Shown here: piece by piece, positions 17,766 through 48,053 of the stretch
Layout: every line of letters begins with the position of its first letter
Numbering within the stretch: the stretch's first letter is position 1
From: an uncultured Candidatus Saccharibacteria bacterium
GTDB lineage: Bacteria > Patescibacteriota > Andersenbacteria > UBA10190
Length of the DNA stretch: 64,000 bases
Assembly (NCBI GenBank): GCA_964610055.1
Contig: CAZSUC010000001.1
Coordinates: forward strand, 588,977-652,976
Reading direction: 5' to 3'
Translations under genes and position numbers: made by a program
The notes under the pieces: generated by a model
Databases searched by the model: none
What the model saw: only the letters and a program-made list of their open reading frames with translations
Told to the model about the DNA's origin: nothing

Positions 17766-19655
17766 TTATTCACCGAATGACATCTGCTGTGTTAACAACA
17801 TCTGATAGTACTGCCCTCTTTTTCGTAGTAGCTCTTCCGACGAACCAAACTCAATTATTCTACCCTTACTTATAACTGCTATAATATCAGCCTGAGTTAC
17901 CGTCGACAGCCGATGAGCGATTATAATTGTAGTTTTTTTATGGCTCAAAGCGTTGATTGCCTGCTGCACCTCGTGCTCTGACTTACTGTCCAGAGCACTT
18001 GTTGCTTCATCAAAGACCATTACCTGTGGATCACGTACCAGAGCCCGTGCAATTGCTATCCTCTGTCTCTGCCCTCCAGACAACCGCACTCCTCTATCAC
18101 CAATCACCGTGTCATATCCATCCGCTAAATGACTGATAAACCCATGCGCGTTAGCCGCAACCGCCGCCTTCCGAATCTTGTCTATAGGACATTCTCGTGA
18201 TGCACCATAAGCAATGTTCTGCCCGACGGTATCATGAAACAAAAACACGTCCTGACTCACCACTCCAAACAGATTACGATAACTCGCCTTTTCAAAATCT
18301 TTCACATCCACCCCATCAACCAAAATCCGGCCTTTTGTTGGATAATATAATCCTAAAATTATATCTACCAAAGTACTTTTCCCTGAACCACTTTCTCCTA
18401 CTAAAGCCAAAGTCTTTCCAGTCGGCAAGAACAGATCTATATCTCTCAGTACTAAGCCATCTCCATAGCTAAAACTCACCTTCTCAAACTTTATCCCATG
18501 CTTCACCACACTAACCCGCTTTACGCCTTTATCAGTTTCTTGAGGCTCATTCAAAAATGAATATACTCTCTCAGTTGAGGCCATGCCTTCTTTTATGCTA
18601 AACCAAACGCCTACTAAGATATTCACGGGCTGCTGGAACCTGGTTAGCACGACAAAAAACAGAATCAGCTCCGGTACCGACAACTCATTCCTTATAATCA
18701 AAACTCCCCCTAAAAACACCACGGCCCCCGATAACAACGCGCTTGTAATTTCTTTAAAACGGTTTGGCAATGCTTTGCTTGCTGCATTCAGAGCCTCTAA
18801 TCGACGCCATTCTTGTAAATACTGCCTCCAACGCGTATTTTCGTCTTGTGCACGGTTAAATATTTTCACCACCTTAATGCCACTTAACGTCTCCTGTATT
18901 ACAGATGTAACTGCCGCCTGCACAACCAATATTTTTCGTTTATTGCTTTTCATCCACTCGCCTATTCCAATGGAAAATACACTGATCAAAATCCCGACTG
19001 GAATCATAATTAAAACTAGCTTTGCATTAATGACTAATAAAACGACAAGTAAGCTCGCCGAAACAAAAAAATTAATCACTATGTTGGCCACACTTCCGGA
19101 AACCATCTGAATCACCCCTTCGATATCATTAGTCATGCGAGACAAAATCGTTCCACTCCGCTCCTTTACAAAATACTGGTATGGCAGCTTAACTAGATGC
19201 TCATAACACGTTGCTCTTAGTAAAGCGTTTCCGCCCGTTTGCACACGAATGAACAAGAAATCCACTCCAAAGCCAATTATTGCCGACAAAACAACCAGAC
19301 TAATTATAAACCCCACTAGCCGTATCAACTGAAACGACTTCGTCCCTTCCCCAGCAACCACCACATAAAAGTTATTAACAACACTTTTCACCCGACTCTC
19401 CCATTCGGACACTTTTTTAAAAGCCAAGGGCTCACCATACATTTCCGGATCACTACTACTACCAAGCCCGCTCACTTCTTCAGGAAACAAAGTTTGCACT
19501 ACAGGCAAAAAAGAGTAAGTGGCTACACTGCTAACTAAACTCAACATGATCGCCAAAACACTCGCCACCACTAACACCCGCCACTCCGGCAGAATATACC
19601 GTAATGCCCAGCCATATAAACAGATTTGTTTACGCTTGTCCATCCACTGCCACAC
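17766..19655 (-). CDS. ABC transporter, fused permease/ATPase (type I exporter, MsbA-like)
   Basis: N-terminal 6-TM domain. Walker A GESGSGKST, ABC signature LSGGQRQRIAIARAL and Walker B VMVFDEATSALD. Confidence 0.9.
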   Translation of the reverse strand: MWQWMDKRKQICLYGWALRYILPEWRVLVVASVLAIMLSLVSSVATYSFLPVVQTLFPEEVSGLGSSSDPEMYGEPLAFKKVSEWESRVKSVVNNFYVVVAGEGTKSFQLIRLVGFIISLVVLSAIIGFGVDFLFIRVQTGGNALLRATCYEHLVKLPYQYFVKERSGTILSRMTNDIEGVIQMVSGSVANIVINFFVSASLLVVLLVINAKLVLIMIPVGILISVFSIGIGEWMKSNKRKILVVQAAVTSVIQETLSGIKVVKIFNRAQDENTRWRQYLQEWRRLEALNAASKALPNRFKEITSALLSGAVVFLGGVLIIRNELSVPELILFFVVLTRFQQPVNILVGVWFSIKEGMASTERVYSFLNEPQETDKGVKRVSVVKHGIKFEKVSFSYGDGLVLRDIDLFLPTGKTLALVGESGSGKSTLVDIILGLYYPTKGRILVDGVDVKDFEKASYRNLFGVVSQDVFLFHDTVGQNIAYGASRECPIDKIRKAAVAANAHGFISHLADGYDTVIGDRGVRLSGGQRQRIAIARALVRDPQVMVFDEATSALDSKSEHEVQQAINALSHKKTTIIIAHRLSTVTQADIIAVISKGRIIEFGSSEELLRKRGQYYQMLLTQQMSFGE

Positions 19656-19688
19656 TTAAAAACACATGATATTATTACAGTAGACGTT

Positions 19689-21095
19689 ATGCCTATACAT
19701 TACAAAGCCAACTGGCAATCTATTATTGCACTGATAGGAGCTACAGTAATTCTCCTTACCCTCACCCTCCAATATCCCTTCTCTGTTACTTTCCCTATAG
19801 GCGGAGATGCACCCTCATACATCACTTATACTAAAATGCTCCTTGGCGTTTTCCATAACCCCAACGATGCCTGGTACGCCCTTACTCACACCTGGTACCC
19901 ACTTGCATACTTTTACTTCGCCCCCTTCGCTTTAATTCCAATTAGCTGGCCCATGCGCTTCGTCTGGTGGGCCGCTACAGGATACGTCATTTCTGGAGCC
20001 GCTCTCGGCTGGCTAATTTACCGGATCGGGGGTTGGAAATATGCTGCCGCCAGTATCGCTCTCTGGGCACTCGTCCCGATTGCTGGCATGCGCCACTTTG
20101 AAGATGCCACCATCGCTCAACTCTGGAGCTATACCCCCTTCTTTTTATTTATTGAACGCTTTTACTCTAAAAAAACCATTGTCACCCTGATCCTACTGGT
20201 TATTACCTGCCTGAGCCACCCCATCACCGCCATCGTACTTCTCACCGGCATGTTTGCTTTTATTCCTGCTGGCATATATTCACATAAAGGATTCCAGCCC
20301 GCCGACAAACGCTTCACTATTATTATGGTTACAGCGGCATCGATCATGGCTCTCGCTGCATTGGCGGTTGTTATTAGTCGCGCTTCCGTATTTAACGTCG
20401 TTGTCGCTCTTCCTCAACCATCCGGAATATTTGATTACATGCGACCTAACTTCATTCCAATCGCTATGCTTGCTCCAATCGGGCTAATCTTCCTCCTAGA
20501 ACACTTGCGCAACAAACCTCACGCCTTACTTATGATGACCTGTATTATATTATCCAGTACATATTTTGGCCTTAACGGAATTTTCGGACACCACGTTTGG
20601 GAAGTTAGGTTCTACGCCTTCTTCGTCATGAGCCTCATTATATTAGCTTCCTTTTCCCTGCCTCATTTAGTCCACCATATATTTCCCTCTCACATTCTCG
20701 CTAGCGCATTTTTAGTTTGTTTTTTTAGCGTTATGGCCATCACTAATTGGTCCCAGGCTGCCTATGTTTATAACTTTTACGAATCGTCTAGTCGGTACGG
20801 ACGTCTGCACTCTGATGAAATTTCCGGTATCGAGTGGATGATTAACAACCTACCAAGCCACTCCAAAGTATATGTCACCAATACTACTCGACACTCGGAA
20901 TGGATCCAGGCGCTGACTGACTTCCAGGTTCAGTTCGTTGATGAGAATTCACTGACTAACGGTCTAATCCCTATCACAGAAGGCGCACAATATCATGCCT
21001 TCTTTACACATACTGAAAGTTTTCCAAAGGATCTTATCCAATACCCTATGATCTACCAGAACCAGGGGTTTAAAGTAATCCAACTCAATTCATGA
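19689..21095 (+). CDS. Polytopic membrane protein (possible GT-C glycosyltransferase or polymerase-like)
   Basis: About 10 hydrophobic helices followed by a soluble C-terminal domain. The start is taken at MPIHYK (19689) to avoid overlapping the ABC gene start. Confidence 0.5.
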   Translation: MPIHYKANWQSIIALIGATVILLTLTLQYPFSVTFPIGGDAPSYITYTKMLLGVFHNPNDAWYALTHTWYPLAYFYFAPFALIPISWPMRFVWWAATGYVISGAALGWLIYRIGGWKYAAASIALWALVPIAGMRHFEDATIAQLWSYTPFFLFIERFYSKKTIVTLILLVITCLSHPITAIVLLTGMFAFIPAGIYSHKGFQPADKRFTIIMVTAASIMALAALAVVISRASVFNVVVALPQPSGIFDYMRPNFIPIAMLAPIGLIFLLEHLRNKPHALLMMTCIILSSTYFGLNGIFGHHVWEVRFYAFFVMSLIILASFSLPHLVHHIFPSHILASAFLVCFFSVMAITNWSQAAYVYNFYESSSRYGRLHSDEISGIEWMINNLPSHSKVYVTNTTRHSEWIQALTDFQVQFVDENSLTNGLIPITEGAQYHAFFTHTESFPKDLIQYPMIYQNQGFKVIQLNS

Positions 21096-21406
21096 TTATC
21101 AGTCACAAAACATCCAGCTGGATTATTATGGTTAGCTTGCTTATCTACTTTTTTGCAGACCACCACATCGTTTTTTACATTTGGCTCACCGGAACAACAA
21201 TCCTTTTATTAACCTCTATCCCTGTCCGTACTTTTCTGCTGTTTACTGTCCTCGCATTTTTTGCTATTGCCGCCTTAAACATCTCCATCCCATGGCCAAA
21301 CGCCTGGCCGGATCTCATTAAATTATCTGCTTCAGCTCTTACTTGGGTAGCTATTACTACTACCACTTCCGCCTGTATCCTTTCATACCACCGAAGTGCG
21401 CCTTAA
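21092..21406 (+). CDS. Small hydrophobic membrane protein (hypothetical)
   Basis: 104-aa ORF with 3 predicted transmembrane helices. ATGA start overlap with the upstream gene. The 3' end overlaps a convergent ORF. Confidence 0.35.
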   Translation: MIISHKTSSWIIMVSLLIYFFADHHIVFYIWLTGTTILLLTSIPVRTFLLFTVLAFFAIAALNISIPWPNAWPDLIKLSASALTWVAITTTTSACILSYHRSAP

Positions 21407-22093
21407 AATTTTCCGAAAGAAATAAATCAAGTCATCTAACACAACACCGGGAAAAGCAATTATAAACCAAACCCCCAACAATCCCATCAAGGCATCCCTT
21501 ATTCCTAATAGTGGTGCTTCTTTATATCCTGACCACATTTTTTCCCATAACATACTCCTACCTACCAACTTCATCTCCACATCACCCTCCTTGTTATTCT
21601 CCGCAATCCAATAATGTCCGTCAGGATAATTGGGGTCAGCTTTTTCCACAAACACCCGCGGCGCCCGCGCCTGGTTTTCATGTGCAATCTTAGAACCGTT
21701 AAATACCACTTCTAAATCCCCGTCCAGCCAAACCGCAGGATTAATCTCAAATACTTCCTCCCAAGTCCGCCCCGCTTCACCTTGCCGCCGCCAACGCTGT
21801 ACTAATTTCCCGTTCCGACGCAAATCAATCTGCAACTCTTCAGTTTCTTCCGGCCAATAGATTGGCACAACTATTTTTGTCGCTTCAAACGGCTCTTCCA
21901 CCCTTAAAGTCTGAGTAACTATAAATTGCGCAAAAACAGGCATACCATTTTCTGGCACATCATGAGCAGCTAAAATCCGAATAGCTGCAAACTCTTGATA
22001 TTGACCCAACCAATTCCATCCCCACCACCCAAACACCAACAATAATATTCCGCTCGCACTCATTCGAACTATTTTGATCCAGCTTTGCGACAT
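21383..22093 (-). CDS. Membrane-anchored hypothetical protein
   Basis: N-terminal TM (ASGILLLVFGWWGW) and C-terminal TM. It is in the same reading frame as the upstream ORF, separated only by TGA plus 3 codons. Confidence 0.45.
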   Translation of the reverse strand: MSQSWIKIVRMSASGILLLVFGWWGWNWLGQYQEFAAIRILAAHDVPENGMPVFAQFIVTQTLRVEEPFEATKIVVPIYWPEETEELQIDLRRNGKLVQRWRRQGEAGRTWEEVFEINPAVWLDGDLEVVFNGSKIAHENQARAPRVFVEKADPNYPDGHYWIAENNKEGDVEMKLVGRSMLWEKMWSGYKEAPLLGIRDALMGLLGVWFIIAFPGVVLDDLIYFFRKILRRTSVV

Positions 22094-22102: not shown

Positions 22103-23503
22103 TCAAACGTTCTTCCGCCGCCGCAAACCGATCGCCAACCACGCCCACGGCATCAACCAAACAAAATACTGATGCAATAAAGTAGGGAAAAACCCGATCA
22201 ATATCGTAAAGATTGCCAGCCCGGCTTCATATATATTTATCTTCCGCCACCAAAGCGCTGCGTACACGAGCGCCATCATTCCTCCCACCACCACCATCTT
22301 CCCCACGCTCCCGAAGTCCAACACAACCGGTAATGCCGGCAAATCATAATCCATCCGCGCCTCCCGCGTCACTGAATATGTCAGCCCCTTCACTACCGCC
22401 GCCGGATTATCCCAGACAAACGGCAAAATACTTACAACCGGTATAGCACTAACCAGCACCGCTGCTAACAACGTGATTTTCACTTTTTTCCCCGGCCGTG
22501 TCCGCTGCCAAACACTAATCAAAAATACCGGCACAAACACCACTGCCACCTGCTTCACCGAAAGCGATACTCCTAAAATCAACGCTGCCCATAACGCATG
22601 CTGCTCGACCAACGTCACTGCCCCTATCAAAGACACAACACCTAAGAAATCCGTATGCGCTATTCGTGCCACATACAAAGACCAGCGGTTAAACAGCCAA
22701 AATAAAGCGGCCAGAACGCCCAAAACCGGCTGCTTCCGCCGCCAAAGCCAAGCCCCTAATAATCCGGCTCCCCCAAACCAAACTATCGTCACAATTACCC
22801 GCCAGACTTCAATCCAGTCTTCATATTCAGTTAAGCCTAGCTGCTGCATTCCGGCCGACATCCAATACACCAAAGGAAAATGAGCCGGATAACCAATACA
22901 AGTATTGTCTAAAGCACATTTATACGGATTTTCTCCTGATTTAATTTGCCCACCCCGTTGCCAATAATATCCAATATCATCTCCCGCCGTATCATGACTC
23001 CAAAAAGAATTTAGAACTGCTGCCAACGCTCCCATTCTCGTCTGAAACACTATGGCTATATTAACGTCCTCATTATCTTCAGCCATATCTTGATTTCCAG
23101 GCTTCCATTTCACCTCATTCCCGTAATTTACAAACCTCAACCTCGCGATTGATGTAGTTTTTGCCTTAATTTTTGCAAATTCAAACACCCATTTCACCTC
23201 TGCCTTTTTACCAATATCTCTTTTTCCACTTACCTCTCGAATCACATTTCCTTGTTCGTCCTGAACTTGCATTATTATTTCACCCGGATTAAGCGCTTTT
23301 TGTTCCTGTGTAATAATTTCCGAAAGTCCGCTCATTGGTACCTGAATTACTTGCTCTAGCTGTTCGTTCGTCTCTAGCACCACAGGATCGATTTCGCCTT
23401 CCTGAGGCTCAATCACACGCACCGGAACTGTAACTGGCCATATTGCCAATATAGTTAGCAACAATACCACTATTCCTAATTGTATATATAAAAACTTTTT
23501 CAT
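22103..23503 (-). CDS. Polytopic membrane protein with an N-terminal extracytoplasmic domain (GT-C/DUF2029-like?)
   Basis: Signal-anchor, a soluble domain of about 200 aa, then about 9 TM helices. Ends ...GLRRRKNV* with TGA. Confidence 0.5.
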   Translation of the reverse strand: MKKFLYIQLGIVVLLLTILAIWPVTVPVRVIEPQEGEIDPVVLETNEQLEQVIQVPMSGLSEIITQEQKALNPGEIIMQVQDEQGNVIREVSGKRDIGKKAEVKWVFEFAKIKAKTTSIARLRFVNYGNEVKWKPGNQDMAEDNEDVNIAIVFQTRMGALAAVLNSFWSHDTAGDDIGYYWQRGGQIKSGENPYKCALDNTCIGYPAHFPLVYWMSAGMQQLGLTEYEDWIEVWRVIVTIVWFGGAGLLGAWLWRRKQPVLGVLAALFWLFNRWSLYVARIAHTDFLGVVSLIGAVTLVEQHALWAALILGVSLSVKQVAVVFVPVFLISVWQRTRPGKKVKITLLAAVLVSAIPVVSILPFVWDNPAAVVKGLTYSVTREARMDYDLPALPVVLDFGSVGKMVVVGGMMALVYAALWWRKINIYEAGLAIFTILIGFFPTLLHQYFVWLMPWAWLAIGLRRRKNV

Positions 23504-36136: not shown

Positions 36137-36361
36137 TCAGCTCCTTTCTACCATTGTAAAATAATTAGCCGGAATAGGACGTGGCGGCAATCCCGGTCGC
36201 ATCACCATAACTACTTTTGTTTCCACCTTAGCTTCAGACGTAATCTTCACTGTCCGCCGCCATGCTTCCAAACGGTTTTTAATTACTCTCTGCGTTTCTA
36301 TTGGCAGCCAATGCTTAATTCGCTCATACTCCTCTTCTACTTTGTGTAATTTTGCTATCAT
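36137..36361 (-). CDS. Small hypothetical protein, translationally coupled
   Basis: Start taken at the ATG in an ATGA overlap with the Clp-like gene stop (MIAKLHKVEEEYERIK...). 74 aa. Its stop is 1 nt before the downstream ATG. Confidence 0.45.
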   Translation of the reverse strand: MIAKLHKVEEEYERIKHWLPIETQRVIKNRLEAWRRTVKITSEAKVETKVVMVMRPGLPPRPIPANYFTMVERS

Positions 36362-38043: not shown

Positions 38044-38044
38044 A

Positions 38045-39895: not shown

Positions 39896-40167
39896 ACAAA
39901 AAACTCCTACATGCACAACACGCATGAGGAGAAATCACTAAAAATCCTTATGCGCGTAGGCTCAACAAAGGATTCAGGCACTCTGACTTATGGCTTTTAG
40001 CCCATCACAGTTGCGGCATACCAGCGCCGGATTCTCACCGGCTTTCCCTGATCACACTTTTCAGTGCGCGTGGTGCGAACCACGCCAATCCTCTTTAAAA
40101 ATTAATGTGCACTCTTAGCTTACCGCCGTTCCCTTGGCCCCACAATCAGTTTTTTGCACAGGCTCGT

Positions 40168-41676
40168 TTATTTAGCGTATATCCAAACATAAGGCACGTC
40201 GTGCACCTTTATAACCTCCACCGGCACGACATCTTTCATTGCCGCTAACGCCTGACTCGCCAAAGTGTCTTCTCCGCGACCACCCATGTTTCTATAGGTC
40301 ACAATATAATCAACATGTTCATTCTCCCGAGCCGCTAAACTAACTACCTCGCCCCTAAAATATGTTTGCAACACTTGCGGATACCAAGATGCAACCGTTA
40401 ATTGTTCCGCCTCTGTCTGCGCGTTTAACCAAGCTGCCGCCGCTTCTAACCCCTCACCCCATCCTTGCTGACTTAGTGGCCGTATCTCCGGTAATAAAGA
40501 ATTATTATACGCAATCAAATAACTATCTCGCCAATTAGCCCATGTCCAAACGGATAGAAATACCACCACGCCTATCGCAAACCCTTGCCATGTTTTTTTT
40601 CGTCTCGCCAAAGTTATCTTTGCCGTTACCCATCCCGTCAACACCGGCCCCACAACCAACGCTGGCAATGCATACCGATCCGCTTTTTTCGCCGCCCAAG
40701 TCATAATAACCAAAAAGCCAATCGCATAAACATACATCCAAACCATTTCTTGGCTGTGCTTTTGTTTCCGCACTATTACTATTAATGCTGCTACCCAGCC
40801 AAATAACACCAGCGGCGTACTCCGACCCAATGCGGTTCGCATATAAAAAGTCGCGGGCTGAATCGCATCCGTCCCAGCATCTAACTCAACATGCTCCCAA
40901 GTAACTGCTGTCCCAATATCACGCGTAAATGAACGACTCATATCTGCTTTCACCCACGCCGCTGGCCATGCCACCCAAAACACCAGTCCTGCTACTCCAA
41001 TCACCGTGCCCAAAGTTCGCAACATTATATTTATTTTTCCTGACTTGCCCCATAACTTCCACACCACCCACCCCATCATCATTGGCACTAGCCATAACGC
41101 TAAAATTAATTTCGTTGCCGCTGCTAGCCCAAACCAAATACCTGCTCCAACTAGCCAACGCCATTTTTGCTTTTGCCACCAGACCATCCACGCCAACCAA
41201 CTATTCAACATGAACAATGCCAATAATCCATCCAAATGCACAATCTGCGTCGCTCCTGCTAAATACGGATCTAACGCCAAAAATATTCCAGCTAACCAAC
41301 CGACTGGCGCCCCTCCTAAGATCGTCAACATAAATGCCGCTATCCCAATCATCCCAGCCGCCGCTAAACTCACGGGCAGAACAGCTGCCTTACGAAAATG
41401 TTGTAAATTACCTGGCTGAACTGTTACTCCTAAACGTGTTTCTTGCACCACTTCCCCTGCCCCTGCTAGCCACATTAAAGGCGCCCCCGGATGAGTTGTC
41501 ACAAATGTCGACGCTGGATCCATGGCTCGAATTGCCTGCCAATATTGAGCGCTGCGTAACATCCACGCCTCTTCATCCACTGTCATATATTGCCCTAACC
41601 CCGGCCACCGCGCCAATAACGCTAAAACTCCGATACTAACTGGTATTATTCCTGCTTTCGCTTTAATCCAATTCAC
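40168..41676 (-). CDS. GT-C glycosyltransferase, PMT_2/GT39-like (paralog of 29665-31620)
   Basis: MTVDEEAWMLRS...TTHPGAPLMWLAG and C-terminal LTVASWYPQVLQTYFRGEVVSLAARE...VTYRNMGGRGED align to the 29665 ORF. Confidence 0.65.
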   Translation of the reverse strand: MNWIKAKAGIIPVSIGVLALLARWPGLGQYMTVDEEAWMLRSAQYWQAIRAMDPASTFVTTHPGAPLMWLAGAGEVVQETRLGVTVQPGNLQHFRKAAVLPVSLAAAGMIGIAAFMLTILGGAPVGWLAGIFLALDPYLAGATQIVHLDGLLALFMLNSWLAWMVWWQKQKWRWLVGAGIWFGLAAATKLILALWLVPMMMGWVVWKLWGKSGKINIMLRTLGTVIGVAGLVFWVAWPAAWVKADMSRSFTRDIGTAVTWEHVELDAGTDAIQPATFYMRTALGRSTPLVLFGWVAALIVIVRKQKHSQEMVWMYVYAIGFLVIMTWAAKKADRYALPALVVGPVLTGWVTAKITLARRKKTWQGFAIGVVVFLSVWTWANWRDSYLIAYNNSLLPEIRPLSQQGWGEGLEAAAAWLNAQTEAEQLTVASWYPQVLQTYFRGEVVSLAARENEHVDYIVTYRNMGGRGEDTLASQALAAMKDVVPVEVIKVHDVPYVWIYAK

Positions 41677-44324
41677 ACTGCACTCGCTTTAATTCGATGC
41701 ATGAACACCAGCGTGTTTGATCCATTCTCTACTTCATGAACTGTTTCAAAATCAGTTTCCATCCCTGCCTCAATCTCGGAATACTCCATCAAAAATGAAA
41801 ACCCAGTTTGTTTTTCTAGTAACACCCATTCCGCCTCACGCCAAGCCTGAACCATCTCTTCGGCGGAAGGCAAAAACACATTCAGTCTTTCTGGGTTCTT
41901 TCGTGTAAATTCATAGGCATACCAACGCGGATGAGCAATATCTAACGACACATGATGACCAGATAAATATGGTACTGCCGCTGCTCCCGTAAAAATCGGT
42001 TTATCTGATGGAATATTTTCCTGCGCCCATTCTGCCGCCTCACGCAAAGAATCTTGCTGAAAAGTTCCAGTGTGCTCAAACGTTGCCGTAATATAATTTG
42101 ATAAATAAACTGCCCACATAATCACTAGTATACTTATCACCGCCAATGGGCGGCGTACCATTTCTCCTTTACCTACCACAAACAAACGTCTCCACAACCA
42201 ATAAGCTCCTACCGCCGCCAATATCGTCAGAGGTGGCAAAAATTCAATAATGTAATTCGCATGAAACTTAATCCAATTCCAGTAAAAGAAGGCTAAGCCT
42301 AAAAACCACGCCAACAAGACCAATGCACTCGCTAGCATCTGTCCCGCCGATTGTTCTCCCGGTGCCACTTTAATTGACTGTTTAATTTCAAATTGAGCTT
42401 GTGCTCCTGAAACTACATTCATCGGTATATTCACCCCTGCATCCGGCTGCGTACTAGCTTTAACTTGAGATGACGCCACCCATCCTTCTTCATTACTACG
42501 CGGCCATACAGTTGCAATCAGTAAAACACTCATCATACCCCACCATAACCCTCGCATTCCACCCATTGATAAAAACGGTTCTCCTTCATATTCAAAGAAA
42601 AATCCATGCGCCCACCACCACCCTAACCATGCCAATAACCAGCCTATTTTTGGCAGCACATGATCGACAATTACAATAGTGATCTTGTCCGACTTATCAC
42701 TGACCCACTTTCGCGCTATCACCCGTAACCATCTTTCCCACATCATTCCAACTCCCACCAGCGCCAAAATTATTAGCGGCAATGATTCTCGGAAAAACGG
42801 CGTCATGCCTCGAATTGAATATTCGCGCACTTGTTCCGCCTCTGCCGGATCAATTGCGGTTTGCCCATCTTCCGCTGAATTAAAACCACTCACTTCCCAC
42901 AAGCCTTGTGTACCATACTGACCATATGCCCACCCTAACAACGCCGAAATTACTAACAAAAATCCCGCCCCAATCAAAACTAAACGCTGGAATTTATTGC
43001 GCCATCCTCGCGACTCAATCCAGACTAATAATAACGGCACAATCCCTAACGCTAGAATACTCTTACGCGAAGCAACACCTAACCCCAATAAAAGACCACC
43101 TATTAACAAGCGATATCCTAATTTCCGGCCTCCCAGATGACCCCGCAACGCCGTCCATATCACCGCGATTCCACTAATCCCAAATAACATCGCCACTGGC
43201 TGAGTGTGCACATACACTGTACTCACTGCTGCCGATCCCAACATCCCCCACATTACCGCTGCCAATAATCCTGTTCGTTTGTTATGTGCTTCTCGTCCAA
43301 TAAAATACATCGGAATGATTGTCAGCACTCCAGCCATAATTGATCCCATGCGTCCCGCTAAAATTGTCGGTCCCATTATTAACTGCCATAATGCCACCCA
43401 TAACAACATAATCGGCGCCTTCACATAACCATCCCCTCCGGCTAAGTGTCCGCGCAATAATGTTTGCGCATCATACAAATAATTACCCTCATCATTAGTC
43501 ACCGGCATTTCTACGGCATATCTGATACGCCATAAAGTCGCCAATATCATGACTAAAGCAATAATCGTTCCCACTACTACTCGATTTAATTCTTTTTCCT
43601 GAGCTTGCCCGCTCAAAACTACTATTGCTCCTACAACCACCGCAGCCGCCAACGCTAAAATCATCCAGTTATAATACGTTCCTTCCCGTGTATCCCAAGT
43701 TCCCACTACCCACCGCGCCTGATTCCCAACAGTGGTAATAATAGCTTCTCGCAACGTCACATCATGATGAGCTATAAACGCCACATCCACCGTTGGCTTT
43801 CCTGACCGCGCAATTACCTCCGCCCCTATCTGCCCTTCGCTGTTCCGCACTAAAAATGCTGACCCTAAGTGATAAGGATCTTGCGTGTTCAAATCAACAG
43901 TCACTGCATTTCCCACCACTGACGCCGGCGAAGTAATCGCGAAGAAATAAGTTTTTCCTTTGCTATTCGCAATCGGATCAAACTCAAACCGATAAAATTG
44001 ATTATCTCCTAGCTCCTGCGGCTCAGCTATGACAGTCCGCAAATTTTCATCACTTGTATAGGACTCTCGTAAATAGAAATAAACCGGCGCCGTGTTGTCC
44101 CTCCCCGAATACGTTGCAAACATTACGCTTACTGCCGACAAGTCATCTGCATCCGCCACAAAAGTCTGTCCTACTAACGCATCGCCCGTTAATTCACCTG
44201 CGTTAGTTGTATATTCCTTAATTTCCGTGTCATTTTGCTTAACCTTAATAAAATTCGCTGACACTGCTGCAGCCGCTAAAACAACTACCACAATTAAAAA
44301 CCAAATTTTTGTTGATGATCGCAT
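41673..44324 (-). CDS. Large GT-C (ArnT/PMT-like) membrane glycosyltransferase with an N-terminal extracytoplasmic beta-domain
   Basis: Signal-anchor, then a domain RFEFDPIANSKGKTYFFAITSPASVVGNAVTV homologous to the C-terminus of 29665-31620. Then about 13 TM helices with a PMT/ArnT-like first loop (NDEGNYLYDAQ) and a long C-terminal region. 883 aa. Confidence 0.6.
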   Translation of the reverse strand: MRSSTKIWFLIVVVVLAAAAVSANFIKVKQNDTEIKEYTTNAGELTGDALVGQTFVADADDLSAVSVMFATYSGRDNTAPVYFYLRESYTSDENLRTVIAEPQELGDNQFYRFEFDPIANSKGKTYFFAITSPASVVGNAVTVDLNTQDPYHLGSAFLVRNSEGQIGAEVIARSGKPTVDVAFIAHHDVTLREAIITTVGNQARWVVGTWDTREGTYYNWMILALAAAVVVGAIVVLSGQAQEKELNRVVVGTIIALVMILATLWRIRYAVEMPVTNDEGNYLYDAQTLLRGHLAGGDGYVKAPIMLLWVALWQLIMGPTILAGRMGSIMAGVLTIIPMYFIGREAHNKRTGLLAAVMWGMLGSAAVSTVYVHTQPVAMLFGISGIAVIWTALRGHLGGRKLGYRLLIGGLLLGLGVASRKSILALGIVPLLLVWIESRGWRNKFQRLVLIGAGFLLVISALLGWAYGQYGTQGLWEVSGFNSAEDGQTAIDPAEAEQVREYSIRGMTPFFRESLPLIILALVGVGMMWERWLRVIARKWVSDKSDKITIVIVDHVLPKIGWLLAWLGWWWAHGFFFEYEGEPFLSMGGMRGLWWGMMSVLLIATVWPRSNEEGWVASSQVKASTQPDAGVNIPMNVVSGAQAQFEIKQSIKVAPGEQSAGQMLASALVLLAWFLGLAFFYWNWIKFHANYIIEFLPPLTILAAVGAYWLWRRLFVVGKGEMVRRPLAVISILVIMWAVYLSNYITATFEHTGTFQQDSLREAAEWAQENIPSDKPIFTGAAAVPYLSGHHVSLDIAHPRWYAYEFTRKNPERLNVFLPSAEEMVQAWREAEWVLLEKQTGFSFLMEYSEIEAGMETDFETVHEVENGSNTLVFMHRIKASAV

Positions 44325-44333: not shown

Positions 44334-45353
44334 TTACCAATAATACTCTTTATTCTTGCGATAAAACTCGACCATTTCACGAATACCGTCCTTAAAATCT
44401 ATCTGTGGTTTCCAGGCACATGCCATTTCCAATTTATGCGTATCAGCAATATAATCCCCTGTCTCATTTTTTTCATAATCTTCCGGCCAGGGTACGTATT
44501 TCTTCGTCCCCGCCCCCGCCGCTGCGATAATCATATCTACCATCTCTCCAAATTTAATCCGCTCATGACTCCCCACATTATACGCTTCTCCCGCCTGTCC
44601 TTTGACGATTAAGCGCATCATCCCATTTACAATATCATCAATATAAATATAATCTCGCTCCTGTTCTCCATCTCCAAAAATCTGAATTTCTTGCCCCTCT
44701 AAAGCCTGCCTCACAAACCAACCAACTATTGAATACTTACCATGTTTCATCTGCTGTCGTGGACCATATGGATTTGGGATCCGCATAGACACGCCTTGCA
44801 CTCCAAAAGTATGCGCATAATATCGATAATACTTTTCTCCTAATAGCTTATGAATTCCATACAAAGACAAAGGATCAGTCGGATGCGTCTCTTTAACCGG
44901 TAATTCTAAAATTTTTCCATACACTAATCGAGATGACGAAAAAAGAATCCGCGCTTCTGGTGCAAAATTTTTGACTGCTTCCAAAATCACTAAATTGCCT
45001 CGGCCGTTAAAATCCAAATCCATAAACGGCTTATCCTTTGATTCCAAATAACTCACTTGTCCCGCTAAATGAAACACAAACTGTTTGCCTTGCACTAATT
45101 TATTCATTAGTTCCTCATCCCGAATATCACCATCTACCAGCTCTAACTTCTCTTCTATATCCGCTACGTTAAACCGATTACCTCCATACGGCGGCAATAA
45201 CGCATCCAAAATTGTTACTTTTGCTCCAGCTGCTGTTAGCGCTCTTGCCAAATTACTGCCAATAAATCCTAGGCCACCAGTAATCAACACCTGTGCTCCA
45301 GTTAGGGCTGTTTTTATATCTTCCGGCAAATCGCTTGTTAATTGCTTATCCAT
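44334..45353 (-). CDS. NAD-dependent NDP-sugar epimerase/dehydratase family protein
   Basis: VLITGGLGFIGSNLAR Rossmann motif, YGIHK catalytic dyad. 339 aa. Confidence 0.75.
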   Translation of the reverse strand: MDKQLTSDLPEDIKTALTGAQVLITGGLGFIGSNLARALTAAGAKVTILDALLPPYGGNRFNVADIEEKLELVDGDIRDEELMNKLVQGKQFVFHLAGQVSYLESKDKPFMDLDFNGRGNLVILEAVKNFAPEARILFSSSRLVYGKILELPVKETHPTDPLSLYGIHKLLGEKYYRYYAHTFGVQGVSMRIPNPYGPRQQMKHGKYSIVGWFVRQALEGQEIQIFGDGEQERDYIYIDDIVNGMMRLIVKGQAGEAYNVGSHERIKFGEMVDMIIAAAGAGTKKYVPWPEDYEKNETGDYIADTHKLEMACAWKPQIDFKDGIREMVEFYRKNKEYYW

Positions 45354-45969: not shown

Positions 45970-47109
45970 TTACCCCTGTTTATATTCCCGATACAACCGG
46001 TCGTATTCACTCATGATTGCACTCCAATCGTATTGCAAAGCCATCTCTCGACTTGCTTTCCCCATTCGTTCTCGTAAATCTTGATCATCAATCAATCGTA
46101 CCAATCTCTCGGCAATCTGTTCTTCATTTTCTCCCACTAAAAATCCATTTTCGCCCTCTTTAACGATTTCGTTATTTCCTCCCACATCACTCGCCACCAC
46201 CGGCAATCCGCACCCCATTGCTTCTAAAATTACTGATGGCATACCTTCTGATAATGACGTCAACACAAACACGTCAGCATACTGATAAGATTTTTCTAAT
46301 TTGTCGTAAGGCACAGTCCCCACATACTTAATCACATCTGACACGCCTAATGAAGTCGCCAACTGGTCCAGTTCACTACGATAAGTTCCTGTCCCCACTA
46401 CTTCAACTTCAAACGGATACTGCGCTCGCTCCCTCACTAACGGCAATGCCTTCACTACCCGCTGAAACCCTTTCCGCGGAATCAAACGACCAATAAACAA
46501 TAGTCTGACTTTGGGGTTAGCTGACCGTTCAATCGGAGAAAACCTTTTCGTATCCACCCCATTTGGAATCAACTTAAACTCCGCTTTCGGATCAACTTGT
46601 TGACCTAAGCGAACCAATTCTTCTGAACAAACAGTTCTAAACTCCGCTCGTTGCCAAATTAATTTTAATAGGGGAGTAATCACCGGATACACCCGTTTGT
46701 ATCGCGATGGATTCGCCCCCGGAATATCCGATCCGCCAAAATAAACAGCGTAGGGGAGACCTCGCACTAATGAAATCACCCACGCCACCCATCCCGCCGG
46801 CACCGCAAAATACGCCTGAATAAAGTCCACTTTATGCCTTAAGGTGTACCACCACACGTATCCCAATGCTGATATTCCAAATATGACTAACTCCCACATC
46901 GCCGCATAGTCAGCAAATCGCCGCACTGCCGGAATCCTAATCACTTCAGCTCCATCAATCACTTCCCTGCGCGGCAATCCCTTATATCCCGATGTCACTA
47001 AAGTCACTTCATGCCCAGCCGCCACTAAATATTTAATCGCATATTTTGTAACCGTTGATCCTCCCCCGCCAATCGGCGGAAATTCATTGTTAATTAGCAG
47101 CAGCTTCAT
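45970..47109 (-). CDS. GT4 glycosyltransferase
   Basis: LLLINNEFPPIGGGGSTV N-terminal domain and SEGMPSVILEAMGCGLPVVASDVGGNNEIV C-terminal motif. Confidence 0.85.
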   Translation of the reverse strand: MKLLLINNEFPPIGGGGSTVTKYAIKYLVAAGHEVTLVTSGYKGLPRREVIDGAEVIRIPAVRRFADYAAMWELVIFGISALGYVWWYTLRHKVDFIQAYFAVPAGWVAWVISLVRGLPYAVYFGGSDIPGANPSRYKRVYPVITPLLKLIWQRAEFRTVCSEELVRLGQQVDPKAEFKLIPNGVDTKRFSPIERSANPKVRLLFIGRLIPRKGFQRVVKALPLVRERAQYPFEVEVVGTGTYRSELDQLATSLGVSDVIKYVGTVPYDKLEKSYQYADVFVLTSLSEGMPSVILEAMGCGLPVVASDVGGNNEIVKEGENGFLVGENEEQIAERLVRLIDDQDLRERMGKASREMALQYDWSAIMSEYDRLYREYKQG

Positions 47110-47114
47110 TGCAA

Positions 47115-48053
47115 TTATTCAAATCCAACTGTTCTCCGGATTGTATAGGGCTTTTTTTCCGTGTAATAAGTTTTTGCCACCTGATCAGCCAATACTCCGG
47201 ACAATAAAAATTGAAAACCTAATAAAACTAATAAAACAGCCAGCAGGGGAGAAGTTCGATTCGCCAACCCAATAATCCGAAATAACCACAGTGCGCCTAG
47301 CGTACCACCCAAGACAAATCCAGTTCCGATAAATCCCGCCCCGATCGCTCCAAAAAAGTGCATCGGCCTAGCTGAATATTGAATCCAAAATTTCACCACA
47401 AATAAATCCAAAAACCCTTTTAATTTCTTTTTGATTGAATATTTCGTCTTACCGTATTTACGAGGATGATGCCTTACCACCATCTCTCCCACTCGAAATC
47501 CTTTCCATGACAACAACGCTGTAATATACCGATGCATTTCTCCGTATAATTCCAGTCCTTCCAAAGCTTCTTTGCGGTACACTTTCAAACTGCACCCTTG
47601 ATCGTGAATTTTTTCGCCTGTTACTCTCCGTCGCACCCAATTCCCAATCTTACTCCCCAGCATCAATAGTTGCTTATCATGCCGCTCTTTTCGCCATCCG
47701 GATACGACATCTAATTTATCCTCCTCTAACTTCTTAATCATCGCCGGAATATCTTCCGGATCATTCTGTAAATCAGCATCTAACACAATCACGTATTTCC
47801 CTTGCGCTTTATCAAACCCAGCCGACCAAGCCGCTGTCTGTCCAAACTGTCGTCGGAATTCAATTAGCTTCACGCGCTTATCTTGTTCAGTCAGGCGCAC
47901 AACTCGTTTCAATGTCTCATCCGTGCTACCGTCATCAATAATAATCAATTCCCACTCTCCTGCCATTTCACCCACTACCCGCTTAACCGACTCATACAAA
48001 GGCAGGATTGAATCTTCTTCGTTATGTGCTGGGACAACAATTGAATATTGCAT
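47115..48053 (-). CDS. Polyprenyl-phosphate glycosyltransferase (GT2; Dpm1/ArnC/GtrB-like)
   Basis: SIVVPAHNEEDSI...LIIIDDGSTDET...VIVLDADLQNDPEDI plus two C-terminal TM helices. This architecture is typical of undecaprenyl/dolichyl-phosphate sugar synthases. Confidence 0.85.
   Translation of the reverse strand: MQYSIVVPAHNEEDSILPLYESVKRVVGEMAGEWELIIIDDGSTDETLKRVVRLTEQDKRVKLIEFRRQFGQTAAWSAGFDKAQGKYVIVLDADLQNDPEDIPAMIKKLEEDKLDVVSGWRKERHDKQLLMLGSKIGNWVRRRVTGEKIHDQGCSLKVYRKEALEGLELYGEMHRYITALLSWKGFRVGEMVVRHHPRKYGKTKYSIKKKLKGFLDLFVVKFWIQYSARPMHFFGAIGAGFIGTGFVLGGTLGALWLFRIIGLANRTSPLLAVLLVLLGFQFLLSGVLADQVAKTYYTEKKPYTIRRTVGFE

What the first reader, a model, noticed from the sequence alone, without database searches (positions are those of the whole stretch)
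17766..48053. Unusual concentration of GT-C membrane glycosyltransferases (4 PMT/ArnT-like plus 3 YfhO-like) with a polyprenyl-P sugar synthase and an MsbA-like exporter
Seven large polytopic GT-C-type proteins occur within about 25 kb. Two of them form a clear paralog pair (29665 and 40168). A Dpm1/ArnC-like GT2 (47115) would make the lipid-linked monosaccharide donor. An ABC exporter (17766) and MurJ are nearby. This resembles a protein O-glycosylation or cell-wall-polymer glycosylation factory built by gene duplication. Lineage-specific expansion of YfhO and PMT paralogs in one locus is notable.
Basis: partly seen in the sequence, partly recalled or inferred. Interest (0 to 1): 0.5.

Follow-up and report, generated by a model that had tools for sequence, protein, structure and literature searches.

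The report
Conserved nine-enzyme membrane glycosylation gene array
A small-genome, uncultured bacterium of the Andersenbacteria group (Candidate Phyla Radiation, CPR) carries nine membrane sugar-transferases next to the enzyme that makes their lipid-linked sugar donor; related genomes carry arrays built from the same gene families, several in the same order, so this is probably an old surface-glycan assembly line rather than a recent duplication burst.

Summary
All seven proposed GT-C proteins hold up: four PMT_2/ArnT-like (E476, F651, H502, I883) and three YfhO-like (C925, D656, G756). Two more lie in the same stretch. B466 is GT87/ALG3-like. A489 belongs to no known family, but its model matches only GT-C folds, oligosaccharyltransferases first. 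That makes nine GT-C genes between 19626 and 44324.

The GT2 at 47115 matches ArnC, GtrB and PgfS over its full length and has two C-terminal membrane helices, so it is a polyprenyl-phosphate sugar synthase. F651 and H502 are 44% identical.

"Lineage-specific expansion" needs qualifying. The paralogues are old (25-44% identity), and H502 is not sister to F651 in a tree. The module RmlA-GT2-GT4-epimerase-I883-F recurs in 14 of 43 related loci. The 25 loci of at least 15 kb carry a median of 5 GT-C genes (range 2-8). Only the TraD/ClpB/acidic-protein block (34840-39925) is found solely in this genome.

F651, I883 and C925 share a CBM-like jelly-roll domain, which points to a glycan acceptor. My best reading is stepwise glycan building outside the membrane from a lipid-linked monosaccharide, as in mycobacterial LM/LAM/arabinogalactan or Gram-positive multi-component systems. 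The sugar, flippase and acceptor are unknown. It is a new variant of a known kind, of moderate interest.

The parts
17766..19655 (-). ABCB-type half-transporter (629 aa), a candidate flippase or exporter for a lipid-linked glycan. Its membership of the system is inferred from position only.
   Evidence: Pfam ABC_membrane 4e-39 and ABC_tran 2e-32. NCBIfam MsbA 2.9e-130 at 435 bits, below the 602 cut-off; HepA family 1.8e-117; PglK 4.9e-72. MsbA structures match at 4e-88.
19626..21095 (+). A489: a GT-C-fold membrane protein of an unclassified family. The probable true start is 19689, giving 468 aa. Its closest solved folds are the STT3/AglB/PglB oligosaccharyltransferases.
21383..22093 (-). J236: a 236-aa protein with a hydrophobic C-terminal segment and no known family. 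It recurs near the C925-like and A489-like genes in relatives and is a possible accessory subunit.
   Evidence: No Pfam hit. One strong TM segment near residue 195. Homologues lie next to C925-like or A489-like genes in L021, L025, L030 and L054.
22103..23503 (-). B466: a GT87/ALG3-like GT-C (PimE-type class) with an N-terminal extracytoplasmic region before the membrane core.
   Evidence: Pfam ALG3 6e-6, 26.4 bits, above the 23.6 cut-off. Homologue P0275 is annotated as glycosyltransferase family 87 and hits Pfam GT87 (PF09594), ALG3 and PIG-M. Profile match to the F651 family at 82.7% probability. GDD motif at residues 174-176.
23569..26346 (+). C925: a YfhO-like GT-C with an internal CBM-like jelly-roll domain at about residues 525-657 (nt 25141-25539).
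   Evidence: BLASTP to G756 5e-24. hhalign to G756 100% probability, 2.3e-45, and to D656 99.4%. The CBM-like domain is found by jackhmmer at 5.5e-20 and by hhalign to I883 at 94.8%. LDD motif after TM1.
26343..28313 (+). D656: a YfhO-like GT-C, translationally coupled to C925 by a 4-bp overlap.
   Evidence: Pfam YfhO 5e-4, C-terminus only and below the cut-off. hhalign to C925 and to G756 both 99.4% probability, about 1e-21. About 11 TM segments.
28232..29662 (-). E476: a PMT_2-type GT-C, directly downstream of F651 on the same strand.
   Evidence: Pfam PMT_2 1.8e-9. hhalign to the F651 family 96.1% probability. GDE motif after TM1.
29665..31620 (-). F651: a PMT/ArnT-like GT-C made of a membrane core, a periplasmic alpha/beta domain and a C-terminal CBM-like jelly-roll (residues 510-651, nt 29668-30093).
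31660..33930 (+). G756: a YfhO-family GT-C, transcribed divergently from F651 across a 39-bp spacer. The pairing is conserved in relatives.
   Evidence: Pfam YfhO 1e-16, 61 bits, above the 28.5 cut-off. A G756-like gene lies next to an F651-like gene in L001, L003, L006 and L007.
34840..39925 (-). An interruption, not part of the system: a TraD/TrwB-like ATPase, a truncated ClpB/ClpA-like AAA+ protein and a 626-aa Glu-rich protein.
   Evidence: Pfam and NCBIfam hits. No homologue in any of the 76 related loci.
40168..41676 (-). H502: a PMT_2-type GT-C and an old paralogue of F651 that lacks the CBM-like domain. It overlaps I883 by 4 bp.
   Evidence: Pfam PMT_2 7.7e-7. 44% identity to F651 over 505 aa. 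In the NJ tree it clusters with other ~500-aa forms such as P0102, not with F651. VDEE motif.
41673..44324 (-). I883: a PMT_2-type GT-C with an N-terminal TM helix followed by the same CBM-like domain (residues 38-172, nt 43809-44213).
   Evidence: Pfam PMT_2 2.9e-7. The N-terminal domain is 41% identical to the F651 C-terminal domain, with hmmsearch 1.9e-34 and hhalign 99.9%. NDE motif at 277 after a TM.
44334..45353 (-). An extended-SDR NDP-sugar epimerase/dehydratase of unresolved specificity, conserved between the GT4 and I883 in relatives.
   Evidence: Pfam Epimerase 1.9e-53. All NCBIfam equivalogs score below their cut-offs. The gene order is conserved.
45970..47109 (-). A GT4 (GT-B fold) cytoplasmic glycosyltransferase, conserved next to the GT2.
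   Evidence: Pfam Glycos_transf_1 1e-44. The best solved relatives are PimB' (1e-22), BshA, MshA, PglA and PimA. The position is conserved.
47115..48053 (-). A polyprenyl-phosphate sugar synthase (GT2, ArnC/GtrB/PgfS/DPM1 type), the maker of the lipid-linked monosaccharide donor.
   Evidence: NCBIfam ArnC 4e-46 and PgfS 3.2e-41, both full length. PDB ArnC 5.4e-40, GtrB (sll0501) 7.5e-30, DPMS 8.5e-16. Two C-terminal TM segments.
48069..48953 (-). RmlA-type glucose-1-phosphate nucleotidyltransferase, found directly upstream of the GT2 in about ten relatives.
   Evidence: Pfam NTP_transferase 2.7e-71. The order RmlA-GT2-GT4-Epi-I883 is seen in L002, L005, L011, L013, L014, L015, L017, L028 and L041.

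Best explanation
The locus is an old surface-glycan factory found throughout Candidatus Andersenbacteria (Patescibacteria/CPR).

Proposed mechanism:
1. At the cytoplasmic face, the GT2 (47115) loads one monosaccharide from a nucleotide sugar onto polyprenyl phosphate. The sugar may be shaped by the adjacent SDR epimerase/dehydratase.
2. The adjacent GT4 probably makes or extends a lipid-anchored acceptor or primer.
3. The lipid-linked sugar is flipped by an unidentified flippase. The ABC half-transporter at 17766 is only a positional candidate.
4. Outside the membrane, nine GT-C enzymes of four remote groups transfer it stepwise onto a growing glycan. The groups are three YfhO-like, four PMT_2-like, one GT87-like and one unclassified OST-like.
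5. A jelly-roll CBM-like domain on three of the enzymes holds the glycan acceptor.

In logic it resembles mycobacterial PIM/LM/LAM and arabinogalactan assembly, where one GT2 donor synthase serves many GT-C enzymes. It also resembles an enlarged Gram-positive multi-component transmembrane glycosylation system.

Shown: the folds and families, the loop-1 acidic motifs, the operon structure, the conservation of the array and the shared domain. Inferred: the donor sugar, the flipping step, the glycan acceptor and the stepwise order.
For: GT-C identity of all nine:
- Pfam hits.
- Profile-profile links.
- Homologue annotation for B466.
- Each has an Asp/Glu motif just after a TM helix. It is invariant D32-E33 in the F651 family and nearly invariant D40 in the A489 family.

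Donor synthase: full-length ArnC/PgfS/GtrB matches and two C-terminal TM segments.

Operon coupling: 4-bp overlaps join I883 to H502 and C925 to D656, and genes abut from GT2 to H502.

Conservation: GT2, GT4, Epi and I883 homologues occur together in 14 of 43 Andersenbacteria-type loci. Loci of at least 15 kb hold a median of 5 GT-C ORFs, range 2-8.

Glycan acceptor: the same domain occurs in F651, I883 and C925, and in the F651 model it resembles CBM35/36/32-type modules. The review PMC8035078 notes that large GT-Cs such as AftD carry carbohydrate-binding domains thought to bind the acceptor polymer.

One synthase to nine GT-Cs in the window argues for a shared donor rather than nine separate GT-A/GT-C pairs. 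The GT4's best solved relative is PimB'. A PIM-like pathway with a GT87 enzyme has already been proposed for a Saccharibacteria genome (PMC6031116).
Against: - No acceptor, sugar or product is identified, and nothing here is experimental.
- No GtrA-type flippase, priming phosphoglycosyltransferase or LCP ligase is present in the 64-kb window.
- Only 64 kb of a contig of at least 698 kb was seen, so other polyprenyl-P-sugar synthases may exist elsewhere. Relative L019 has a second GT2 inside its array.
- PMT-family enzymes in Actinobacteria and eukaryotes glycosylate proteins.
- The GT4 match to PimB' covers only the C-terminal half and is not specific.
Confidence: 0.5

Rival explanations
1. 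Protein O-glycosylation machinery. The PMT_2/PMT-like and YfhO-like enzymes glycosylate Ser/Thr-rich regions of secreted or surface proteins (pili, S-layer, adhesins) from the polyprenyl-P-sugar. The models are actinobacterial Pmt, streptococcal PgfS-PgfM1-PgfE-PgfM2 and GtrB/PgtC2.
For: - The F651-family profile matches solved PMTs by sequence.
- The GT2 matches PgfS over its full length, and G756 weakly matches PgfM1.
- The gene set GT2 + SDR epimerase + two GT-Cs mirrors PgfS/PgfE/PgfM1/PgfM2.
- Streptococcal glycosylation of Ser/Thr-rich disordered regions by GT-C enzymes is documented (PMC12041528, listed).
Against: - No MIR domain, which is the acceptor-side domain of true PMTs. Instead there is a CBM-like jelly-roll on three enzymes.
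- All NCBIfam PgfS/PgfM1 scores are far below the cut-offs.
- No obvious Ser/Thr-rich secreted substrate gene lies in the array.
- Nine transferases are many for one protein-glycosylation step.
Confidence: 0.2
2. Several independent decoration systems. Each GT-C adds a side-chain sugar to a different pre-formed polymer (a teichoic-acid-like, rhamnan-like or nonulosonic-acid-containing glycan made by the flanking GT2/GT4/Rml/Pse-like genes), as YfhO/CsbB, GtlB/GtlA and GacL/GacI do. There is no sequential assembly line.
For: - The whole 64-kb window is glycan biosynthesis: GT2/GT4/methyltransferases, NeuB/CMP-transferase, the ADP-heptose pathway and RmlABCD.
- YfhO and PMT_2 enzymes are the typical decorating GT-Cs in Firmicutes (PMC8035078).
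- One GT-A can serve two GT-Cs, as Listeria GttA does.
Against: - Known decoration systems usually pair one GT-A synthase with one or two GT-Cs (table in PMC8035078). Here the ratio in the window is 1:9.
- No teichoic-acid synthesis genes, GtrA flippase or LCP ligase are in the window.
- The conserved gene order across distant relatives suggests one co-functioning unit.
Confidence: 0.2
3. En bloc transfer module. A489 is a miniature, divergent oligosaccharyltransferase (STT3/AglB/PglB type). It transfers a pre-assembled polyprenyl-PP-oligosaccharide, flipped by the divergently transcribed ABC exporter as PglK does, onto protein or another acceptor. The other GT-Cs then trim or decorate the product.
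For: - The sequence after the last TM, '...W..NN..S.S.IY.S..NRHSEWIP.LT', lies where, from my recollection of OST sequences (not an alignment made here), OSTs have '...W...NTP..S.V.SWWDYG'.
- The starts of the ABC exporter and A489 overlap divergently.
- The exporter matches the PglK model at 4.9e-72.
Against: - The WWDYG motif is absent, and only W405 is invariant.
- Loop 1 has a single conserved Asp in GGD, not a DXD.
- TM-scores are only about 0.5-0.55, and ALG12, Pmt4 and AftA are not far behind.
- The model rests on a 5-sequence alignment, pLDDT 74.9.
- The exporter matches MsbA and HepA models better than PglK.
- The ABC-A489 adjacency is absent in relative L054.
- No priming phosphoglycosyltransferase is in the window.
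Confidence: 0.1
4. The large polytopic proteins are transporters or other non-glycosyltransferase membrane proteins, and the apparent cluster is an annotation artefact.
For: Three of the nine have no Pfam hit, or only one below the cut-off, when scanned singly. One neighbouring polytopic protein, 62253-63644, is indeed a transporter of the Nramp family.
Against: No transporter family matched any of the nine in Pfam or NCBIfam. Profile-profile links, homologue annotation and structure searches place every one in GT-C.
Confidence: 0.01

Closest known systems
Multi-component (three-component) transmembrane glycosylation systems of Gram-positive bacteria: CsbB/GtrB-type GT-A + flippase + YfhO/PMT_2-type GT-C (review PMC8035078)
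   Same: - A membrane-anchored GT2 of the ArnC/GtrB/CsbB type is encoded with YfhO-family and PMT_2-family GT-C enzymes.
- The predicted topology and loop-1 acidic motifs agree.
- An extracytoplasmic carbohydrate-binding-like domain sits on the larger GT-Cs.
   Different: - Nine GT-Cs of four remote groups accompany a single visible GT-A, instead of 1:1 or 1:2 pairs.
- No GtrA- or obvious Wzx-type flippase is in the window.
- No teichoic-acid or LCP genes are present.
- The host is a reduced-genome CPR bacterium.
- One member (A489) belongs to no described family.
Mycobacterial/corynebacterial PIM-LM-LAM and arabinogalactan assembly: Ppm1 GT2 donor synthase, PimA/PimB' GT4, and the GT-C enzymes PimE (GT87), MptA/B, EmbA-C and AftA-D
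   Same: - One lipid-linked monosaccharide donor serves many different GT-C enzymes, which build a glycan outside the membrane.
- The enzyme classes match: a GT2 synthase, a GT4 whose best solved relative is PimB', and a GT87-like GT-C (B466).
- CBM-type domains occur on GT-Cs, as in AftD.
   Different: - The genes are contiguous here but dispersed in mycobacteria.
- No evidence for phosphatidylinositol or decaprenyl-P-arabinose chemistry.
- YfhO-type enzymes are not part of the mycobacterial pathway.
Streptococcus mutans Pgf protein O-glycosylation cluster (PgfS, PgfM1, PgfE, PgfM2)
   Same: GT2 synthase + SDR epimerase + two polytopic GT-Cs in one operon. The GT2 matches the PgfS model over its full length (3.2e-41), and G756 weakly matches PgfM1.
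   Different: - All scores are far below the equivalog cut-offs (141 vs 500 bits; 20.7 vs 1400 bits).
- An extra GT4 and seven further GT-Cs are present.
- The CBM-like domains suggest glycan rather than protein acceptors.
ArnC/ArnT lipid A modification pathway
   Different: - No ArnA, ArnB or ArnD in the window.
- No lipid A pathway genes are present in the window, and CPR bacteria are generally regarded as monoderm (my knowledge, not tested here).
- The ArnC score of 157 bits is far below the 529 cut-off.
Oligosaccharyltransferases STT3/AglB/PglB (relevant to A489 only)
   Same: They are the closest solved folds by two methods. A489 has a membrane core plus a small C-terminal alpha/beta domain and a conserved Asp after TM1.
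   Different: - No WWDYG.
- No DXD.
- About 470 aa against 600-870 aa.
- No detectable sequence similarity.

Membership tests
GT-C superfamily (polyprenyl-phosphate-sugar-dependent membrane glycosyltransferases) | Polytopic membrane core with the GT-C fold | tested here: met
   [not shown]
GT-C superfamily (polyprenyl-phosphate-sugar-dependent membrane glycosylttransferases) | Conserved acidic residue(s) in the first extracytoplasmic loop after TM1 | tested here: met
   D32-E33 is invariant in 19 F651-family sequences. D40 is nearly invariant in 40 A489-family sequences. Matching DE/DD/GD motifs follow a TM helix in all nine proteins. Conservation in the other families was judged on the window sequence only.
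GT-C superfamily (polyprenyl-phosphate-sugar-dependent membrane glycosyltransferases) | Use of a polyprenyl-phosphate-linked sugar donor | not testable with these tools
   Only circumstantial: an ArnC/GtrB-type synthase lies in the same operon as I883 and H502.
YfhO family (PF09586) | Match to the family profile above the curated cut-off | tested here: inconclusive
   G756 meets it (61 bits against 28.5). D656 scores 19 bits, below the cut-off, and C925 has no hit. Both are tied to G756 by hhalign at 99.4-100% probability.
PMT_2 / GT39-GT83-like (PF13231, PF02366) | Match to the family profile above the curated cut-off | tested here: met
   E476 38.5 bits, H502 29.9 and I883 31.3 against PMT_2 (cut-off 26.1). 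F651 scores 32.9 bits against PMT (cut-off 22.7).
Protein O-mannosyltransferase proper (GT39 PMT/POMT) | Luminal/periplasmic MIR domain between TM helices, plus the C-terminal PMT_4TMC module | tested here: not met
   No MIR or PMT_4TMC hit in any of the four PMT_2-like proteins. The F651 model instead has an alpha/beta domain and a jelly-roll after the last TM.
GT87 / ALG3-type GT-C (B466) | Match to the family profile above the curated cut-off | tested here: met
   ALG3 26.4 bits against 23.6 for B466. Homologue P0275 hits GT87 at 26.6 bits against 25 and is named glycosyltransferase family 87 by NCBI. The margins are small.
Polyprenyl-phosphate sugar synthases (ArnC/GtrB/CsbB/DPM1-type GT2) | GT-A catalytic domain followed by an interface region and two C-terminal TM helices, with full-length similarity to characterised members | tested here: met
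   ArnC residues 8-299 of 316 are aligned at 4e-46, and PgfS 1-298 of 308. Solved ArnC and GtrB match residues 3-299. TM segments at 246 and 270. The equivalog cut-offs are not reached, so the sugar specificity is unknown.
Oligosaccharyltransferase STT3/AglB/PglB (considered for A489) | WWDYG motif in the C-terminal domain | tested here: not met
   No WWDYG is present. NRHSEW lies at the position I judged equivalent from memory of OST sequences (no alignment to an OST was made), and only W405 is invariant.
Oligosaccharyltransferase STT3/AglB/PglB (considered for A489) | DXD/EXD motifs in external loops 1 and 2 | tested here: not met
   Loop 1 carries a single conserved Asp (FPIGGD). The 'HFED' stretch in loop 2 varies among the five closest homologues.
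MsbA lipid A flippase (considered for 17766) | Score above the equivalog cut-off, and the presence of lipid A as substrate | tested here: not met
   TIGR02203 scores 435 bits against a 602 cut-off. HepA-type, TAP-type and PglK models also match. No lipid A genes are in the window.

The most novel reading that the evidence does not exclude
A489 founds an undescribed GT-C family: about 150 sequence clusters, with no Pfam or NCBIfam model. It would be a miniaturised oligosaccharyltransferase-type enzyme of CPR bacteria. With the divergently transcribed ABC exporter acting as a PglK-like flippase, it would transfer a pre-assembled lipid-linked glycan en bloc onto a surface acceptor by a recognition motif (NRHSEW) different from WWDYG. 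The other eight GT-Cs would then elaborate that glycan outside the cell. Together this would be a complete extracytoplasmic glycan-building pathway that defines the cell surface an episymbiont presents to its host.
Probability: 0.1. Interest if true: 0.7.

Novelty: new variant of a known kind. Interest (0 to 1): 0.45.

Why it matters
CPR/Patescibacteria have tiny genomes and are thought to live attached to host cells, yet almost nothing is known about their surface chemistry.

In this genome the whole 64-kb window, roughly 9% of a 698-kb contig, is devoted to glycan synthesis. Its core is a GT-C array of gene families that recur clustered across the phylum, so the product is probably central to the biology of these cells (envelope integrity, host attachment or phage evasion).

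The array is a compact, conserved set for heterologous reconstitution. It holds one donor synthase, one GT4, one epimerase and nine transferases.

It also yields two concrete objects not in current family databases. One is the A489 GT-C family with an OST-like fold. The other is a CBM-like module shuffled between the N-terminus, middle and C-terminus of three different GT-Cs.

It does not overturn any concept. The mechanism class is known from Firmicutes and Actinobacteria.

Tried and rejected
- **Source contig.** Exact look-up of the window's F651 (and of P0001) returned nothing. The organism was therefore inferred from homologues and synteny.
- **A tenth GT-C.** The 10-TM protein at 62253-63644 is an Nramp metal transporter and was rejected.
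- **A489 by sequence.** Pfam, NCBIfam, PDB profile searches with 5- and 40-sequence alignments, and Pfam scans of 40 family members gave only stray hits: DUF6798 in 3 of 40, EpsG in 1 of 40, and a VKOR hit at 0.017. Only the fold search resolved it.
- **YfhO structure.** No solved structure is detectable by sequence with G756.
- **GtrA-type flippase.** A scan for small multi-TM ORFs found none in the window.
- **Insertion boundaries.** No direct or inverted repeats flank the TraD/Clp/acidic block, only internal repeats.
- **CBM-like domain in B466 or J236.** Not detected by hmmsearch or jackhmmer.
- **Profile links from A489 to the other eight.** All were weak, the best being 31% probability to the I883 C-terminus.
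- **The afdb50 fold library.** It was unavailable.
- **Literature.** No paper linked Andersenbacteria, Patescibacteria or CPR to YfhO or GT-C arrays. This is absence from the searchable library only.
- **Recent duplication of F651/H502.** Rejected by the NJ tree and by the identity levels.

Full report
**What is in the sequence**

Between 17766 and 48953 the long ORFs run as follows.

| Name | Coordinates | Strand | Size | First assignment |
|---|---|---|---|---|
| ABC | 17766-19655 | - | 629 aa | ABC half-transporter |
| A489 | 19626-21095 | + | 489 aa | none |
| J236 | 21383-22093 | - | 236 aa | none |
| B466 | 22103-23503 | - | 466 aa | ALG3 (weak) |
| C925 | 23569-26346 | + | 925 aa | none |
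| D656 | 26343-28313 | + | 656 aa | YfhO (weak) |
| E476 | 28232-29662 | - | 476 aa | PMT_2 |
| F651 | 29665-31620 | - | 651 aa | PMT / PMT_2 |
| G756 | 31660-33930 | + | 756 aa | YfhO |
| unrelated block | 34840-39925 | - | three genes | TraD-like, ClpB-like, Glu-rich |
| H502 | 40168-41676 | - | 502 aa | PMT_2 |
| I883 | 41673-44324 | - | 883 aa | PMT_2 |
| Epi | 44334-45353 | - | 339 aa | SDR epimerase/dehydratase |
| GT4 | 45970-47109 | - | 379 aa | GT4 |
| GT2 | 47115-48053 | - | 312 aa | GT2 |
| RmlA | 48069-48953 | - | 294 aa | nucleotidyltransferase |

Four-base overlaps couple C925 to D656 and I883 to H502. F651 abuts E476, and B466 abuts J236. Three very short divergent junctions separate the oppositely oriented units: ABC/A489, B466/C925 and F651/G756.

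**Checking the seven claimed GT-C proteins**

- Pfam places E476, F651, H502 and I883 in PMT_2/PMT, each above the curated cut-off.
- G756 is a YfhO-family member (1e-16). D656 hits YfhO only weakly, and C925 has no hit.
- C925 and D656 are nonetheless clear relatives of G756. BLASTP gives 5e-24 and 2e-7. Profile-profile comparison, using alignments built from related loci, gives 100% and 99.4% probability.
- F651 and H502 are 44% identical over 505 residues.
- Nineteen aligned family members keep an invariant Asp-Glu pair just after TM1, in the sequence 'TVDEENW'. This is the position of the catalytic acidic residues in GT-C enzymes.

**Two more GT-C proteins**

B466 passes the Pfam ALG3 cut-off. 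One of its homologues is annotated as glycosyltransferase family 87 and hits Pfam GT87, ALG3 and PIG-M.

A489 has no hit in Pfam, NCBIfam or PDB sequences, even with family profiles. Its family is small, with 148 cluster representatives among 1.84 billion proteins.

The family conserves 'FPIGGD' after TM1, an Arg (R307) and a Trp in 'NRHSEW'.

All nine proteins carry an acidic motif directly after a TM helix. The neighbouring 10-TM protein at 62253-63644 is an Nramp transporter and is not a tenth member.

Profile comparisons sort the nine into four mutually remote groups:
- YfhO-like: C925, D656, G756
- PMT_2-like: E476, F651, H502, I883
- GT87-like: B466
- A489 alone

**The donor synthase and its neighbours**

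The GT2 at 47115 aligns end to end with ArnC (4e-46) and PgfS (3e-41). It also aligns with the solved ArnC and GtrB structures and has two C-terminal TM segments. That is the architecture of polyprenyl-phosphate sugar synthases. All scores are below the equivalog cut-offs, so the sugar is unknown.

The SDR enzyme is not assignable to a specific reaction. The GT4's best solved relative is PimB', followed by BshA, MshA, PglA and PimA.

The ABC protein is a generic ABCB-type half-transporter. The MsbA model scores 435 bits against a cut-off of 602, and HepA-type and PglK models also match.

No GtrA-like small membrane protein is present anywhere in the window. MurJ exists but lies at 57897-59519.

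**A shared accessory domain**

The C-terminal 140 residues of F651 are 41% identical to residues 38-183 of I883. The same domain sits inside C925 at about residues 525-657 (jackhmmer 5.5e-20; hhalign 94.8-99.9%).

One module has thus been shuffled to the N-terminus, the middle and the C-terminus of three different GT-Cs. That suggests a common acceptor, probably a glycan. The review of Gram-positive systems makes the same argument for AftD and possibly for S. aureus YfhO (PMC8035078).

**Where it comes from, and whether it is lineage-specific**

F651 is identical to a protein on a 698,565-bp NCBI contig. Its nearest relatives (47-54% identity) are from Candidatus Andersenbacteria, in the Parcubacteria group of the Patescibacteria.

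A scan of species-representative genomes returned 75 loci. I mapped all of the window's proteins onto their ORFs.

- The module RmlA-GT2-GT4-Epi-I883-F651-like recurs. GT2, GT4, Epi and I883 homologues occur together in 14 of 43 Andersenbacteria-type loci.
- That module is followed by D656-, E476-, F651- and C925-like genes.
- L007 is nearly collinear with the window. J236-like genes lie next to C925-like genes in L021, L025 and L030, and next to A489-like genes in L030 and L054.
- Loci of at least 15 kb carry a median of 5 GT-C ORFs, range 2-8. Chloroflexota loci carry a median of 1, although some Chloroflexota have three or four tandem F651-like genes.
- In a neighbour-joining tree H502 groups with other ~500-aa forms, not with F651.

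The array is therefore old and characteristic of the phylum, not a recent expansion in this genome.

The only element found solely in this genome is the TraD-like / ClpB-like / Glu-rich block at 34840-39925. It has no counterpart in any related locus and splits the array.

**How it most likely works**

*Shown:* nine GT-C enzymes; one ArnC/GtrB-type synthase in an operon with two of them; a phylum-wide recurrence of the gene set with partly conserved order; and a shared CBM-like module.

*Inferred:*
1. The GT2 charges polyprenyl phosphate with one sugar in the cytoplasm.
2. The lipid-linked sugar is flipped by an unidentified flippase.
3. The GT-Cs add it stepwise to a glycan outside the membrane.
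4. The GT4 makes or extends a lipid-anchored primer.

The 1:9 ratio of synthase to GT-C is unlike the 1:1 or 1:2 pairs of Firmicute decoration systems (table in PMC8035078). It recalls the mycobacterial logic, in which polyprenyl-P-mannose or decaprenyl-P-arabinose feeds many GT-Cs. This comparison rests on my own knowledge of those pathways. A PIM-like pathway with a GT87 enzyme has been suggested for a Saccharibacteria genome (PMC6031116).

I give this reading about 0.5. The rivals are:
- protein O-glycosylation of the PMT or Pgf type, 0.2;
- several independent polymer-decoration systems, 0.2;
- an OST-like en bloc module formed by A489 and the ABC exporter, 0.1.

**Caveats**

- Only 64 kb of the genome was seen.
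- No flippase, priming transferase or ligase was found.
- The A489 model rests on five sequences.

**Comparison with known systems, and novelty**

[quoted passage not shown] Each enzyme is a remote member of a known superfamily. None reaches an equivalog threshold, and the true-PMT hallmark, the MIR domain, is absent.

Three things are new:
- the scale and conservation of the array in a reduced CPR genome;
- the A489 family, which is not in Pfam or NCBIfam;
- the shuffled CBM-like module.

I found no paper describing GT-C arrays in CPR bacteria. That shows only absence from the searchable library.

Verdict: a real, conserved and under-described locus. It is a new variant of a known kind, with interest about 0.45.

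Noticed in passing
window 1-64000: Extreme strand asymmetry. GC skew is -0.315 over the whole window, and every 2-kb bin lies between -0.14 and -0.49. Third codon positions show +0.61 in the 37 minus-strand genes and -0.52 in the 13 plus-strand genes; intergenic DNA shows -0.23. Some Andersenbacteria relatives match it (L001 0.28, L002 0.30, L027 0.31), while others sit near 0.05. Amino-acid make-up follows the strand: plus-strand GT-Cs are 21-27% V/A/D/E/G, minus-strand ones 35-38%. This may be why Pfam misses C925 and D656.
   Followed up: partly
window 34840-39925 (-): A three-gene block splits the GT-C array: a TraD/TrwB-like coupling ATPase (431 aa), a truncated ClpB/ClpA-like AAA+ protein (561 aa) and a 626-aa Glu-rich protein with an internal 261-bp repeat (38943-39272). 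None of the 76 related loci has a homologue, and no flanking repeats were found. It may be an inserted mobile or defence module.
   Followed up: partly
window 33894-34476 (+): A tandem duplication of about 355 bp carries two small paralogous ORFs (33923-34126, 67 aa; 34285-34476, 63 aa). Each follows an AGGAGGA-like site, and neither has a family match.
   Followed up: partly
window 10381-17762: A nonulosonic-acid (pseudaminic/legionaminic-like) gene set: NeuB, a HAD phosphatase, an ATP-grasp enzyme, a GNAT, a CMP-sugar cytidylyltransferase, a DegT aminotransferase and a PseB-like dehydratase. It is followed by a 403-aa protein (16551-17762) with no family hit, possibly the transferase.
   Followed up: no
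window 49078-55124: A complete ADP-L-glycero-D-manno-heptose pathway, next to RmlD, RmlB and RmlC. The pathway comprises HldD (356 bits, above the cut-off), a split HldE (a kinase and an adenylyltransferase), GmhB and GmhA. The host lineage is presumed monoderm and to lack LPS, which suggests heptose in the surface glycan.
   Followed up: no
window 1-9490: A further block of two GT2, four GT4-like glycosyltransferases, three SAM methyltransferases and a TviC/GalE-like epimerase. The entire 64-kb window is essentially glycan biosynthesis.
   Followed up: no
window 28232-28313: The convergent genes D656 (+) and E476 (-) overlap by 82 bp at their 3' ends.
   Followed up: no
window 45354-45969: A 616-bp gap lies between the GT4 and the epimerase. 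It holds only a 166-aa TTG-start ORF (45453-45953) with no family hit. In most relatives the two genes abut, so this is a possible small insertion or a spurious ORF.
   Followed up: no
L045, L047, L058 (Chloroflexota loci): F651-family GT-Cs (27-30% identical, lacking the CBM-like domain) occur as three or four tandem copies in Chloroflexia and Anaerolineae genomes. The family is shared between Chloroflexota and Andersenbacteria.
   Followed up: partly
window 59523-61466 and 62253-63644: A DUF4012 protein (647 aa) lies next to MurJ. A 463-aa polytopic protein is an Nramp divalent-metal transporter (321 bits against a cut-off of 50).
   Followed up: yes
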